Assembly: GCF_003334765.1 (NCBI RefSeq)
Contig: NZ_QOWT01000020.1
Direction: 5' to 3' (one strand)
Length of the DNA: 64,000 bases
From: Escherichia coli
GTDB lineage: Bacteria; Pseudomonadota; Gammaproteobacteria; Enterobacterales; Enterobacteriaceae
Part shown: positions 33,412-37,660 of the stretch, piece by piece
How positions within the stretch are numbered: the first letter of the stretch is position 1
How the letters are laid out: each line of letters opens with the position of its first letter
Translations under genes and position numbers: made by a program
Notes under the pieces: generated by a model
The model's input: the letters and a program-made list of their open reading frames with translations, nothing else
What the model was told of the DNA's origin: nothing
The model's database searches: none

Positions 33412-34863
33412 TCAGCTAAACAACATCGCGATTTTGCCGAGAGCATAACCTATCACCAGCACCGTTAAACTGATTTTGATAATGCTGGTAATGCTCTGTG
33501 GTTTTTCACCCTCATCATTTTTTTCTTCATGATTTTCAGGTGTTGGCTCATCGACATCTTCATCCTCCGGCTCGAGTTTCACTTTCGTCAAAAGCATCCG
33601 GGTGACAATGGCCTCTAATGGATGAGCATCTCCGCCTTCCAGCCTTGTATTAAGACGGGCCAGCATCTCTTGTTTCGGAAACGCTTCAAGTACTACCTGT
33701 TCCGCTACCCGATACAAATCCAGGAACGGTGAATCTTGCTCTGTCTCGCTACCGACTCTCGATTTCCACCACGCCCATGCTTTGCGCTTGAAGAATAACG
33801 ACTCAATAAACGATTGACCTAACGGCGATAATTTTCCGCTATGTAAAATCTCCGCCCATAACAGCCGCGTCCGGGCGCTCTCACCAGGAACATATTTCAG
33901 CGGTTGACCTTGCGCATCTACCATGCTCCGCGCTTCGATAACCATCACTAATAACGCGAAATAATCCGGGCAATGACGCTTGCTCCACTGCAACAACAAA
34001 TTATCAGCTTGTGTAGATGGGTAACTTTCCCAGTACGCGCAGAGATCGGCAAGCAGGCTTTCCCCCTCGCCGCAGTACAAACGTTGTGCACACAAGTAAT
34101 ACCGGGCATCTTCGCTTTCTGGTTCTTCCGTTTGCCACTGTTGAGCGACAGGAATGAGTTCCGCCATACCTGTTTGCACCGAGCTGTACCAGCGCAACAG
34201 TTTGCGATGTAACTTTGCATCATCAGGAATTAACCACGGACCTTCCATCGCCAAAAACGCAGTGACATAGTCAGGATGGTAACGGCAGCAACGTTCCAGC
34301 GCGAAGTAATACTCAACAGTCTGGTTCTGCAACGCAATGGGATATTCCAGAAGGCTAAGGAAATCGAAACAATCACCAGCCTGAATGGCCTCAAGAAAAG
34401 CCTCCCTTTCTTCCTCATCCATTCCTTCGCTGTCATTAAATGAATGCCAGTTCAAACGCTCTGCCAGCAAAGAAGCACAATTTAATGAAAGATATCGCGC
34501 TTCTATGGCGATTGCACACAGCGGCCAGCGTAATTGATCGACATCCTCCATGTTCCAGGTATTTAATTGCTGAATAAATTTCTGCCAGGCGGAAGGCTGA
34601 AAACGATCACTTTCTGAATCCAGTAATGTCCTGAATGCACGTAGTATTTCATGTTCAGCGGCAGCATCTTTTTCTTCATCATCTGCTTCCTCGACAGGAT
34701 TTACCGCCAGTCGCAGGGCCTCTTCATAGGCCTGGCGTAATGCTTTAAACCCTTGCGGATCGGTTTCGGGATGACACAACGGTAAGCGAGCAAGATAAGC
34801 CTGGCGGATAATGTCTATTTGCGTCGTGCTTTCAATTTCGAGGATTTGCCAACATGTTTTCAT
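33412..34863 (-). CDS. djlC: J-domain co-chaperone DjlC (YbeV), C-terminal hydrophobic tail
   Basis: 483-aa ORF; N-terminal J-domain-like helices (…[29 protein letters not shown]); paralogue of the ORF at 36233..37660. Confidence 0.9.
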
Positions 34864-35567
34864 AGGTCGCTCACATCCTTAAGCGTTACCGGGCATTCAG
34901 ACTGGACAGTTAATGGCTGCCAGGGAAGCGTGGCATAGAAACGATCGCTTCCCGCTGCCAGCTCTTCGAACATACGACTCCCGGCGCTATCGTATTTGTA
35001 CAGGGTTAGCGCCTCGCGTAGCGAAGTGTTGTCTTCGCACTGAGAAGATTGCCAGTAGAGACGTCCTAACGAATAGGCGGAAAAATAGTGCATCCAGCTG
35101 TGATAGTAATGGTGAGCTCGTACATAGACGCGCGATTGCAGCCATAAACTCTCTTCTTCCGTCAGCCACTTGTTGAGCACACCGACCCGTGACAGAAACC
35201 CCATTCGAACATAATCCCAGGCTTTGATTCCCCCTTCCCCACAGCACATAGCGGTTTGGGCAACGAATTGGGTATAAATCAACCCTCTCTCCGAGCCACC
35301 AGCAATTAATGCTTTCCACTCTTCAGGGGAAGAGCGATGCCATGTCAGATATAAGCCAGCTAAATCATTGGCATGACCATCATCAGTCATCTGATAAATA
35401 GTCTGAATTAAATCATCACGATTATTTATTCCCCAGGATGATGAGAGCTCGAATTCTTTTATCCCAGTATACATTTTTGGCGAGTCATGCGCGGGTTTGC
35501 AACCCTGATTAAGTATTTCCATGGGCGCAGAAAGCGCAAAAAGAAGATATTGTTCTTCCTTATTCAT
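34860..35567 (-). CDS. ybeU: DUF1266-family protein YbeU
   Basis: 235-aa ORF; stop overlaps the djlC start by 4 nt; paralogue of the ORF at 37657..38364. Confidence 0.9.
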
Positions 35568-35668
35568 TTGTTAATAATCCCTTAAGTGCATTAACTGACT
35601 ACTTTTTTATTATTGATGAGTATAAACTTGACGCTTTCAAAATAAAAAGAAAATCGAAGCATTCACAC

Positions 35669-36223
35669 ATGAATAAAAAATTAATGTATATATTCGCAAT
35701 TTTTATAGTTGCAGCAATTACCTGTATTAGCCAACCCAAGAAAACGACGTTGCGTGATAAAGCCATGGTGAATTATGCCTTTGATTATTTAAGCTCACCG
35801 GGCAGTCTTCCATTCACCACGGCAGCCACGGAGCTTTCCGCGATTCATGGTCACTCAACGTCGCAATATCGCCTTGGAGAATTTTATCTTCATGGTAGCG
35901 ACGGTAAACCACTGGATTATACACAGGCGAGATACTGGTATGAGCAATCAGCGGAACAGGAAAATCCACGCGCGCAAAGTAAACTGGGGTGGATCTACCT
36001 CAAAGGTCTGGGGGTCAAACCCGACACCCGTAAAGCAATTCTCTGGTATAAGGAAGCAGCTGAACAAGGGTATGCTCATGCTCAATATACTTTAGGTTTG
36101 ATCTACAGAAATGGCTCAGGTATTAATGTTAACCATTATGAATCTCAAAAATGGTTAAAACTGGCCGCCAAACAACATTACAAAAATGCGGAAAGATTAC
36201 TTGCCGGGCTTCCCGCACATTAA
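35669..36223 (+). CDS. ybeT: Sel1-repeat protein YbeT with N-terminal hydrophobic segment
   Basis: 184-aa [23 protein letters not shown] followed by Sel1-like repeats (…A(Q/E)xGxxxAQYxLGxxY…). Confidence 0.85.
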
Positions 36224-36232
36224 CGTCGACTG

Positions 36233-37660
36233 TCACCCGAACAGATGGAGTATTTTCCCTATCAAACCAGCAAAGATAAAAATATAGAAAATAATTTTAA
36301 TGATGCCCAGACAGCCAGGCCCACCATCGTCAACGGGCATTGGCTGCGGTTGCGGCTCCGGTTCAACAGTTTGCTTCTCGGTAAAATTCGCCGCCTGAAT
36401 TAATAATCGACGAATAATTAATGCTTCCAGTGGACAACGATTTTCTGCATCAAGGCGGCTCACAATCGGCATTAATGATTCTTCTGTAGGTTGGCAGGCC
36501 TGCACTAATTGTTTGGCAACTAGATATAATGGCCATAAGGTATGTTCTGTATCACGCGTGAGTGAGATCCGCGGCTTACGTCCTTTGTGCAAAACCATCT
36601 CGACCAGTGAACGCCCCAGCGCAGAGAGTTTTTCATCGCTGAGTATTTCGTATAAATGAAAACGCGTACGGGCGCTGTCGCCGGGGACATAAAGTAGCGG
36701 TTTTCCCTGATCGTTAACCAGATCACGCGCTTCAATCATCATCACCAGTAATGGGTAATAATCGACCCGATGCTGACGGCACCATTGCAACATTAAAGCA
36801 TCCGCCTGGGTGGAGGGATACTCGCGCCAGTAGTCACAAAGTTCTGCCAACAGGCTTTCGCCTTCTCCACAATAGACGCGTTGCGCGTATTCATAATAAG
36901 GCGCATCTTCATTATCAGGTTCAGTTTCCCGCCATGACTGGGCGTAATCCAGAAGTTCGGGGATATCCAGGCGACCTGCGCTATACCAGCGGAGTAAATT
37001 TCTGTGCAGTTTTGCATCATCGGGGATAATCACTGCGCGATGTTGCGCTAAATACAATGTCAGCCATTGTGGATGCGATGACCAAATCCGAGCGAACATT
37101 TGGTAAAAATCGATGGTGTCATTTTGCACGGCAACGGGCAGATGCAGAATGGTCTGGAAGTTAAAAACATTCCCCTTCGCAATGGCATATAAAAAGGATT
37201 CCAGTTCTTCTTCGTCTATTTCCCCGGTATTTTCCTCCTGTAACCACCGCAATCTTTCTGCTAATAACACCACGCACTCGAAGGATAAATGGGCAGTGTT
37301 CATGGCGATTGTGCACAGCGACCAGCGTAATTCATCAATCTCCTCCATCGAGCAATAATTTAATTGCTGAATGAATCGCTGCCAGGCGGAGGGCAGAAAA
37401 CGTTCACTATCAGAGGCAAGTAACGCACGAAAGGCGAGCAGAATTTCATGTTCTGCTACCTCATATTCTTCTGGTTGCCAAACAGATTTAGCAGGCGACT
37501 GCGCAATCCGTAGCGCCTCCTCATACGCCTGACGAAGTTGTTTAAAACCCTGCGGATCGGTTTCTGGATGAAAGGACGGTAACAGCGCCAGATAAGCGCG
37601 GCGGATAATATCGACGTCAGTCGTTTCCTCTATATCGAGGATCTTCCAGCAATTTTTCAT
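36233..37660 (-). CDS. djlB: J-domain co-chaperone DjlB (YbeS), C-terminal hydrophobic tail
   Basis: 475-aa ORF; J-domain-like N-terminus (…[29 protein letters not shown]). Confidence 0.9.

What the first reader, a model, noticed from the sequence alone, without database searches (positions are those of the whole stretch)
33412..37660. Both J-proteins carry HPE instead of the canonical HPD motif
In DjlC (…[12 protein letters not shown]…) and DjlB (…[12 protein letters not shown]…) the tripeptide at residues 31-33, between J-domain helices II and III, is His-Pro-Glu. In canonical DnaJ-type J-domains the Asp of HPD is critical for stimulating the Hsp70 ATPase. A conserved Asp-to-Glu change in both paralogues suggests co-adaptation to the atypical HscC partner rather than decay.
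Basis: partly seen in the sequence, partly recalled or inferred. Interest (0 to 1): 0.5.

Follow-up and report, generated by a model that had tools for sequence, protein, structure and literature searches.

The report
HPE motif in HscC co-chaperones DjlB/DjlC
Both E. coli J-proteins beside the specialised Hsp70 HscC carry His-Pro-Glu where other J-domains have His-Pro-Asp; this is real and selectively maintained, is typical of HscC partners in many bacteria, and has already been published for DjlB and DjlC.

Summary
The window is the E. coli gltL-rihA-hscC-djlC-ybeU-ybeT-djlB-ybeR-ybeQ-leuS region. DjlC (33412-34863, minus) and DjlB (36233-37660, minus) both read H31-P32-E33.

Family profiles place these N-termini in the J-domain family, with HPE aligned on HPD. 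The other "HPD" in DjlC (residues 196-198) lies outside the J-domain.

The motif is already published: a 2023 PNAS survey names DjlB and DjlC among about 2,900 HPE J-domains, and a 2026 review calls HPE the only tolerated replacement. The finding is therefore not new.

What I add:
- The Glu is invariant in 65 diverse relatives from Gammaproteobacteria, Clostridia and Parachlamydiales.
- 73 of 80 genomic loci carrying such a J-protein have an HscC-type Hsp70 next door.
- Starting instead from an HscC-specific Hsp70 motif, 79 distinct neighbouring J-domains gave 52 HPE, 20 other xPE, 7 RPD and 0 HPD.
- Both Glu codons are used, whereas Asp codons, one base away, occur only in RPD lineages.

Decay is excluded. 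Selection for Glu within an HscC-linked module is supported. HscC keeps the Arg and Gln that bind Asp35 in DnaK, so no compensating change was found and co-adaptation in the strict sense is unproven.

The parts
33412..34863 (-). djlC (ybeV): tail-anchored class C J-protein, 483 aa
   Evidence: ORF. RefSeq name. Precomputed Pfam PF27158 (named DjlB_C_2nd) on its homologues.
34702..34863 (-). DjlC J-domain, residues 1-54 (helices I-III; no clear helix IV)
   Evidence: Pfam DnaJ model positions 2-51 of 63. PDB J-domain hits. AlphaFold2 helices 2-7, 16-26 and 36-54, followed by a disordered stretch 55-67.
34765..34773 (-). DjlC H31-P32-E33 (CAT CCC GAA)
   Evidence: Aligned on the HPD of solved J-domains.
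33418..33492 (-). DjlC C-terminal hydrophobic tail anchor, residues 458-482
   Evidence: AlphaFold2 helix 458-482. Hydrophobic sequence. Membrane insertion reported by Peschke 2018, as cited in PMC8215388.
36233..37660 (-). djlB (ybeS): paralogue of djlC, 475 aa, 49% identical
37499..37660 (-). DjlB J-domain, residues 1-54
   Evidence: Pfam DnaJ E=0.0017, model positions 2-51 of 63. Member of alignments A2 and A3.
37562..37570 (-). DjlB H31-P32-E33 (CAT CCA GAA)
31682..33352 (+). hscC (ybeW): specialised 556-aa Hsp70, convergent with djlC (59-bp gap); the partner of these J-domains
   Evidence: ORF. 31% identical to DnaK, with the D208-D211 deletion and part of the 76-101 deletion. Clusters with the Hsp70s found next to HPE J-proteins elsewhere (43-57% identity, against 31-37% to DnaK and HscA).
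34860..35567 (-). ybeU: DUF1266 protein; its stop overlaps the djlC start by 4 bases
   Evidence: A DUF1266 gene lies immediately upstream of the J gene in nearly all proteobacterial loci.
37657..38364 (-). ybeR: DUF1266 protein, 59% identical to YbeU; its stop overlaps the djlB start by 4 bases

Best explanation
DjlC and DjlB are working, membrane-anchored J-domain co-chaperones dedicated to the specialised Hsp70 HscC. HPE is the normal, selectively maintained form of the catalytic tripeptide in this whole J-protein lineage.

The J-domain is minimal: helices I-III, with a short loop of conserved sequence xPE-x-DP-x-GF. I infer that it docks on ATP-bound HscC at the NBD/linker/SBD-beta junction, as DnaJ does on DnaK. 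The Glu33 carboxylate would take the role of Asp35 by engaging the conserved NBD arginine (HscC R146, equivalent to DnaK R167). That would release the arginine's contacts with the linker Asp and SBD-beta and trigger ATP hydrolysis.

Glu rather than Asp is one of several lineage-specific interface features. On the J-domain side these are the shortened loop, the invariant R43 and the loss of the helix II basic pair K26/R27. On the HscC side they are the D208-D211 deletion and the changes L392T, D477S/T, I478Y and K421S. I infer that together they make the DjlB/C-HscC pair orthogonal to DnaJ-DnaK.

Shown here: the motif, its J-domain context, its conservation, its codon pattern, and its strict association with HscC-type Hsp70s.
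Shown by others: DjlC, and not DnaJ, CbpA or HscB, stimulates the HscC ATPase.
Inferred: the Glu33-R146 contact and the role in partner insulation.
For: - J-domain identity, with HPE aligned on HPD.
- Loop position between helices II and III.
- Glu invariant in 111 of 111 close homologues. The 34-row alignment A1 also has H31, P32 and E33 invariant.
- Among the N-terminus-bearing sequences of the 150 best library-wide profile matches: 108 HPE, about 10 N/S/P-P-E and 0 HPD.
- Invariant P32, E33, P36, G38 and R43 in 65 diverse J-domains.
- Forward context test: 73 of 80 genome loci from Escherichia, Pseudomonas, Gilliamella, Pectobacterium, Yersinia, Marinobacter, Clostridium, Lachnospiraceae, Peptococcaceae and Parachlamydiales have an adjacent HscC-clade Hsp70.
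- Reverse context test, starting from the HscC-specific motif YDINGxLEV: 79 distinct adjacent J-domains gave 52 HPE, 13 NPE, 3 SPE, 1 each of RPE, QPE, GPE and PPE, 7 RPD and 0 HPD.
- Codons: 87 GAA and 54 GAG for Glu. GAT and GAC occur only in RPD lineages.
- The R167 equivalent is kept in 76 of 76 HscC-clade Hsp70s that have a residue at that column. D393 and P419 are kept in 77 of 77, and L391 in 74 of 77.
- Literature: D35 binds R167 and Q378, and DjlC alone stimulates HscC (PMC8215388). D(HPD) competes for the NBD arginine (PMC7289447). HPE is the only tolerated replacement (PMC13254874).
Against: - No residue in HscC was found that would specifically require the longer side chain. R146 and Q341 are the same as in DnaK.
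- D481N is not specific to Hsp70s with HPE partners.
- Seven HscC-adjacent J-domains use Asp, as RPD.
- The Q378 equivalent is replaced by Y, V, C, A, H or T in 25 of 59 metagenomic pairs while the Glu stays. That contact is therefore not obligatory.
- All conservation evidence comes from one homologous lineage inherited together with its Hsp70.
- No structure or mutant of any HPE J-domain was found in the library.
- The forward scan was conditioned on [HN]PE, and the reverse scan on I480 and N481 in the Hsp70.
Confidence: 0.6

Rival explanations
1. Neutral conservative substitution. Asp became Glu once in the ancestor of this J-protein lineage, the two are functionally interchangeable on any Hsp70, and the motif persists by descent without specific selection for Glu.
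For: - D-to-E is the mildest possible change.
- HscC keeps R167 and Q378.
- The 2026 review treats HPE as tolerated.
- RPD variants show that Asp is compatible with an HscC-type partner.
- The review states it is unknown which J-domain differences reflect coevolution and which reflect phylogeny.
Against: - Asp is one third-position transversion away from Glu.
- Among 141 distinct xPE sequences both Glu codons are used freely (87 GAA, 54 GAG) and none has drifted to Asp while keeping the His.
- J-domain identity in the family falls to about 40% and the first position of the tripeptide varies, yet the Glu does not.
Confidence: 0.15
2. Intradomain structural requirement. Glu is needed to build this particular short helix II-III loop (xPE-x-DP-x-GF), for example by pairing with a helix III residue such as R43. 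It would not be there to fit HscC.
For: - E33 is embedded in a family-specific block in which P32, E33, P36 and G38 are invariant and D35 and F39 nearly so, alongside invariant R43.
- The loop plus the start of helix III is 6 residues shorter than in DnaJ.
- No HscC-side compensating residue was found.
Against: - Glu is retained in subclades where R43 is His or Tyr and where DP is HP, AP, KP or YP.
- In every characterised J-domain the third residue of the tripeptide points at the Hsp70.
- The tools return no coordinates, so the loop geometry could not be checked.
Confidence: 0.2
3. Decayed, non-functional J-domains (so-called type IV J-proteins) that no longer drive an Hsp70.
For: - The canonical HPD is absent.
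- The Pfam match of the full-length proteins is weak.
- Helix IV is not evident.
- DjlB, DjlC and HscC were below the detection limit in proteomics.
Against: - The motif and its surroundings are strongly conserved across phyla.
- The genes are conserved next to an intact HscC-type Hsp70.
- Published work reports stimulation of the HscC ATPase by DjlC, and shared cadmium sensitivity of the hscC and djlB djlC mutants.
Confidence: 0.03

Closest known systems
E. coli DjlC (YbeV) and DjlB (YbeS), the HscC co-chaperones
   Same: They are these very genes. The sequence is 100% identical to RefSeq E. coli genomes annotated hscC, djlC and djlB. The HPE motif of DjlB and DjlC is stated in PMC10410713 and PMC13254874.
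   Different: Nothing differs. The literature I could read gives no family-wide conservation or neighbourhood statistics, no non-His variants, and no E33 mutants.
DnaJ J-domain acting on DnaK (structure 5NRO)
   Same: Helix II, loop and helix III architecture with the tripeptide in the loop. The profile match to 5nro_B is E=3.6e-7. R20 corresponds to DnaJ R22 and Y23 to Y25, and F39-K40 corresponds to F47-K48. On the Hsp70 side R167, Q378, L391, D393, P419, E206 and E217 are conserved in E. coli HscC.
   Different: - Glu replaces Asp.
- The loop plus the start of helix III is 6 residues shorter.
- K26 and R27 are replaced by L24 and A25.
- There is no clear helix IV.
- HscC lacks D208-D211 and carries L392T, D477S, I478Y, D481N and K421S.
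- DnaJ does not stimulate HscC.
HscB-HscA, the other specialised bacterial J-protein/Hsp70 pair
   Same: A dedicated class C J-protein encoded next to a shortened Hsp70 that lacks the D208-D211 loop. The pair is exclusive.
   Different: From my own knowledge, not checked here, HscB keeps the canonical HPD. HscA keeps L392 and D481.
J-proteins with altered tripeptides ("type IV", e.g. human DNAJB13)
   Same: They depart from HPD.
   Different: Those are presumed unable to stimulate Hsp70. Here the acidic residue is kept, the variant is conserved, and stimulation has been shown for DjlC.

Membership tests
J-domain (Pfam DnaJ PF00226) | Significant match to the J-domain sequence profile | tested here: met
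   64 of 65 family members match as isolated domains at E<=0.001, the best at 1e-10. The family profile hits 28 solved J-domains at E<=0.001, the best at 2.4e-8. The full-length proteins alone match only weakly.
J-domain (Pfam DnaJ PF00226) | Tripeptide located in the loop between helices II and III | tested here: met
   AlphaFold2 gives helices 16-26 and 36-54 with residues 27-35 as loop (moderate pLDDT). HMM alignments place HPE on HPD.
J-domain (Pfam DnaJ PF00226) | Invariant His-Pro-Asp | tested here: not met
   The tripeptide is His-Pro-Glu in both proteins. The acidic character is retained. The literature accepts HPE J-domains as J-domains.
J-domain (Pfam DnaJ PF00226) | Four-helix bundle including helix IV | tested here: inconclusive
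   The Pfam match stops at model position 51 of 63. The model shows disorder at 55-67 and only a 5-residue helix at 63-67.
J-domain (Pfam DnaJ PF00226) | Stimulates the ATPase of a partner Hsp70 | not testable with these tools
   Reported for DjlC with HscC by Kluck et al. 2002, as summarised in PMC8215388. Assumed, not shown, for DjlB.
DjlB/DjlC family of HscC co-chaperones | All-alpha DjlB_C domain (PF27158) after the J-domain | tested here: met
   The precomputed PF27158 annotation is on nearly all homologues and on distant relatives. The AlphaFold2 model has an all-alpha region at about residues 70-430 with pLDDT mostly above 85.
DjlB/DjlC family of HscC co-chaperones | Encoded next to an HscC-type Hsp70 | tested here: met
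   djlC is convergent with hscC across a 59-bp gap, and djlB lies 2.9 kb away. The adjacency holds in 73 of 80 genome loci.
DjlB/DjlC family of HscC co-chaperones | C-terminal tail anchor | tested here: met
   Both proteins have a hydrophobic C-terminus. The model has a helix at 458-482. Membrane insertion of DjlC is published. Longer relatives carry TPR or DUF805 regions instead, so this feature defines only the enterobacterial subgroup.
HscC-type Hsp70 | 550-580 residues, with NBD deletions (DnaK 76-101 and 208-211) relative to DnaK | tested here: met
   The protein is 556 aa, and both deletions are visible in the pairwise alignment. It groups with the neighbour Hsp70s. The criteria come from PMC8215388.

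The most novel reading that the evidence does not exclude
HscC systems may read the J-domain tripeptide differently from DnaK.
- Only the Pro and the acidic third residue are essential.
- The "essential" His is dispensable: it is N, S, Q, G, P or R in 27 of 79 distinct HscC-adjacent J-domains.
- An alternative solution, Arg-Pro-Asp, exists.
- The helix III residue R43 is coupled to the Hsp70 residue equivalent to DnaK Q378.

Together these would indicate a shifted docking geometry that insulates HscC from the cell's DnaK-directed J-proteins.
Probability: 0.3. Interest if true: 0.55.

Novelty: already known. Interest (0 to 1): 0.28.

Why it matters
The Asp of HPD is the best-established functional residue of all J-proteins, so a natural, conserved and active HPE family is a useful probe of how J-domains trigger Hsp70 ATP hydrolysis and how partner specificity is set. 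For DjlB and DjlC the fact itself is already in print.

The added value here is the demonstration that xPE is the rule for J-proteins encoded beside HscC-type Hsp70s across phyla. HPD was never seen in that position, and the His, not the acid, is the variable residue. A 2021 review notes that nobody knows which J-domain differences are coevolution and which are phylogeny. E33D/E33A and H31N variants, together with paired-alignment covariation, would address this directly in a small, non-essential system.

Tried and rejected
1. A "true" HPD elsewhere. DjlC has HPD at residues 196-198 (RYHPDYV). This lies in the DjlB_C domain, DjlB reads HPQ there, and no J-domain profile matches that region. 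Rejected.

2. NCBIfam gave no family for DjlC or DjlB.

3. A compensating change at the Asp35 contact residues. R167 and Q378 are unchanged in E. coli HscC. D481N looked promising until PMC7289447 showed that Asp/Asn variation at this site also occurs in DnaK and mitochondrial Hsp70s. Rejected as a specific correlate.

4. Hsp70 residues that distinguish RPD partners from xPE partners. Nothing was found at interface positions, and there are only 5 sequences from about 3 lineages.

5. Foldseek of the DjlC model against the PDB gave no match at E<=0.001, only weak TPR-like solenoid resemblances. The client-binding domain stays unassigned.

6. A modelled J-domain/HscC complex was not attempted, because the structure tool returns no coordinates and contacts could not be read.

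7. The literature held no D35E or E33D mutant. Kluck et al. 2002 and Barriot et al. 2020 are not held, so their contents are cited only through reviews.
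Full report
**What is in the window.** The region is the E. coli chromosome segment gltL-rihA-hscC-djlC-ybeU-ybeT-djlB-ybeR-ybeQ-ybeL-leuS. The segment 31600-38400 is 100% identical to a RefSeq E. coli genome in which the genes carry these names. The names gltL, rihA, ybeL and leuS for the flanking ORFs are my own recognition and were not checked.
- DjlC is the 483-aa ORF at 33412..34863 (-).
- DjlB is the 475-aa ORF at 36233..37660 (-).
- The two are 49% identical end to end.
- Both read H31-P32-E33, encoded CAT CCC/CCA GAA.
- hscC (31682..33352, +) is convergent with djlC across 59 bp.

**Are the N-termini J-domains, and is HPE at the HPD position?**
- The full-length proteins match Pfam DnaJ only weakly (E=0.036 and 0.0017, model positions 2-51 of 63).
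- A profile of 20 enterobacterial N-termini hits 46 PDB chains at E<=1. Nearly all are J-domains, and the four printed alignments place HPE on HPD.
- A profile of 65 diverse family members hits 28 solved J-domains at E<=0.001. The best is E=2.4e-8, and DnaJ in the DnaK complex 5NRO scores 3.6e-7.
- 64 of those 65 segments match Pfam DnaJ on their own.
- An AlphaFold2 model (mean pLDDT 80, but only 58-72 in the J-domain) has helices 2-7, 16-26 and 36-54 with HPE in the intervening loop. It continues with a disordered acidic linker, an all-alpha domain and a C-terminal helix at 458-482.
- DjlC contains a second HPD at 196-198. This lies in the DjlB_C domain, reads HPQ in DjlB, and is not a J-domain motif.

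**It is already known.** Malinverni et al. (PNAS 2023, PMC10410713) report an HPE triad in 2,921 J-domains, about 1% of the total, and name DjlB and DjlC as examples. [quoted passage not shown] Mayer's 2021 review (PMC8215388) makes four relevant points:
- Only DjlC, and not DnaJ, CbpA or HscB, stimulates the HscC ATPase.
- HscC "coevolved with specialized JDPs".
- It is unknown which J-domain differences reflect coevolution and which reflect phylogeny.

**How conserved is the Glu?**
- Among 120 close homologues, all 111 that include the N-terminus read HPE.
- A full-length profile search of 1.84 billion representative proteins found 6,685 matches. The best 150 include many 800-1270-aa proteins from other phyla.
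- Of the N-terminus-bearing sequences among those 150, 108 read HPE, about 10 read NPE, SPE or PPE, and none reads HPD.
- In an alignment of 65 J-domains thinned at 60% identity (BLAST over the N-terminal 145 residues), the invariant columns are L8, Y23, P32, E33, P36, G38 and R43. H31 is not invariant.
- Across 148 distinct J-domain sequences recovered from the fetched loci, Glu is encoded by GAA 87 times and GAG 54 times. The Asp codons, one transversion away, occur only in the RPD lineages described below.

This is the signature of purifying selection for Glu, not of decay or unconstrained drift.

**Is the motif tied to HscC?**

Forward test. A scan of one genome per species for [HN]PExDP[EQD]GF gave at least 539 relatives. 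Hosts include Escherichia, Gilliamella, Pectobacterium, Pseudomonas, Yersinia, Rahnella, Marinobacter, Clostridium, Lachnospiraceae, Peptococcaceae and Parachlamydiales.
- In 73 of the 80 loci kept, an Hsp70 lies immediately beside the J gene. It scores about 1.5- to 4-fold higher against HscC-clade sequences than against DnaK or HscA.
- Three of the seven exceptions are contigs too short to tell.
- In Proteobacteria a DUF1266 gene sits directly upstream, as ybeU and ybeR do here.

Reverse test. A metagenome scan used the HscC-clade-specific peptide YDINGxLEV, which is independent of the J-protein, and gave 120 loci.
- These loci held 99 adjacent J ORFs and 79 distinct J-domains.
- The tripeptides were 52 HPE, 13 NPE, 3 SPE, 7 RPD, and 1 each of RPE, QPE, GPE and PPE. 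There was no HPD.
- The only HPD J-protein in these loci lies 10 kb from the Hsp70.
- Loci without an adjacent J gene are those where the Hsp70 touches a contig end or is fragmented.

Caveats. The forward scan was conditioned on the motif. The reverse scan fixed I480 and N481. The two genes travel together as a module, so association is also expected from common descent alone.

**Is there a compensating change in HscC?**
- In 77 HscC-clade Hsp70s the residues contacted by the HPD in DnaK are retained: R167 in 76 of 76 with a residue at that column, Q378 in 76 of 77, L391 in 74 of 77, and D393 and P419 in 77 of 77.
- In E. coli HscC the first two are R146 and Q341.
- Clade-specific, conserved differences lie nearby: L392T (76/77), D481N (75/77), D477S/T, I478Y, K421S and L219H/R. 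There is also the D208-D211 deletion, which removes a J-contact residue.
- D481 normally pairs with R167, and the HPD Asp competes for that arginine (PMC7289447). The same paper documents Asp/Asn variation at this site in DnaK and mitochondrial Hsp70s whose partners have HPD. D481N therefore cannot be claimed as the counterpart of Glu.
- In the broader metagenomic set the Q378 equivalent is Y, V, C, A, H or T in 25 of 59 pairs while Glu persists. The universal candidate partner is therefore the NBD arginine.

Co-adaptation in the strict sense remains an inference.

**Most likely mechanism.** HPE is the active tripeptide of a J-domain lineage dedicated to HscC. Glu33 most likely plays Asp35's role on R146. 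Glu, together with the short xPE-x-DP-x-GF loop, invariant R43, the loss of K26/R27 and the HscC-side changes, would form an interface distinct enough to keep the pair orthogonal to DnaJ-DnaK. I put confidence at about 0.6. The rivals are:
- neutral conservative substitution, 0.15, disfavoured by the codon pattern;
- an intradomain structural need for Glu, 0.2, which cannot be excluded without coordinates;
- decay, 0.03, contradicted by conservation and by published activity.

**Verdict.** The details that may be new are these:
- HPD is absent, and the His is variable, among HscC-adjacent J-domains.
- An RPD variant exists.
- R43 covaries with the Q378 equivalent.
- The DUF1266-J-HscC gene module is conserved.

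I found none of these described in the searchable library, although two key papers are not held.

Noticed in passing
window 34860-34863 and 37657-37660; loci L002, L007, L008, L012-L091: A DUF1266 gene (ybeU, ybeR) ends with a 4-base overlap on the start of each J gene. The same DUF1266-then-J arrangement, followed by an HscC-type Hsp70, recurs in almost all proteobacterial loci. It is mostly absent from Clostridia by BLAST. No paper in the library links DUF1266 with HscC. DUF1266 may be a third component of the HscC system.
   Followed up: partly
loci L092-L211 (e.g. L102, L108, L099 NPE; L097, L204 SPE; L092, L096, L110, L132 RPD); proteins P0217, P0241, P0261: In 27 of 79 distinct J-domains next to HscC-type Hsp70s the His of the tripeptide is replaced (13 N, 3 S, 8 R, and 1 each of Q, G and P), in long intact ORFs. 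Seven read Arg-Pro-Asp, the only cases with Asp. In DnaJ the H33Q change abolishes function, so the His appears dispensable here.
   Followed up: partly
metagenome pairs in L092-L211; corresponds to DjlC R43 (window 34735-34737) and HscC Q341 (window 32702-32704): The J-domain helix III residue at DjlC position 43 covaries with the Hsp70 residue at DnaK position 378. The counts are R with Q in 34 pairs, H/Y/Q with Y/V/C/T in 20, R with non-Q in 5, and non-R with Q in 0. Fisher p=2e-11, not corrected for phylogeny.
   Followed up: partly
window 34860-36223 versus 37657-39505: The unit [Sel1-repeat gene, + strand] divergent from [DUF1266 gene then J gene, - strand] occurs twice in tandem: ybeT/ybeU/djlC and ybeQ/ybeR/djlB. 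YbeU and YbeR are 59% identical, DjlC and DjlB 49%, and YbeT and YbeQ share Sel1 repeats. This indicates an old tandem duplication of the whole unit next to a single hscC.
   Followed up: partly
proteins P0130-P0266; loci L002, L003, L004, L009: Most non-enterobacterial relatives are 800-1270 aa. They carry the same J-domain and DjlB_C region followed by TPR arrays (Clostridia) or a DUF805 membrane domain (locus L002, organism not named by the tool), instead of the simple tail anchor.
   Followed up: partly
window 31600-38400, compared with 5,426 complete E. coli genomes: The locus is not universal. 4,433 genomes have a match and only 3,664 have at least 80% of it in one piece. Some strains carry IS insertions (ISEc52, IS5) in or near djlC or djlB (hits H4, H10, H11). 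This fits a dispensable system.
   Followed up: no
loci L060, L075, L084: Three loci from Hungatella, Lachnospiraceae and an uncultured bacterium have a long HPE J-protein but no Hsp70 within about 5-8 kb on either side. These are possible cases of an unlinked partner.
   Followed up: no
window 33412-34863 (DjlC residues about 70-430): The large all-alpha domain is modelled with pLDDT mostly above 85. It has no significant match in the PDB by Foldseek (best E=0.055, TPR-like solenoids). What the client-binding part does is unknown.
   Followed up: partly
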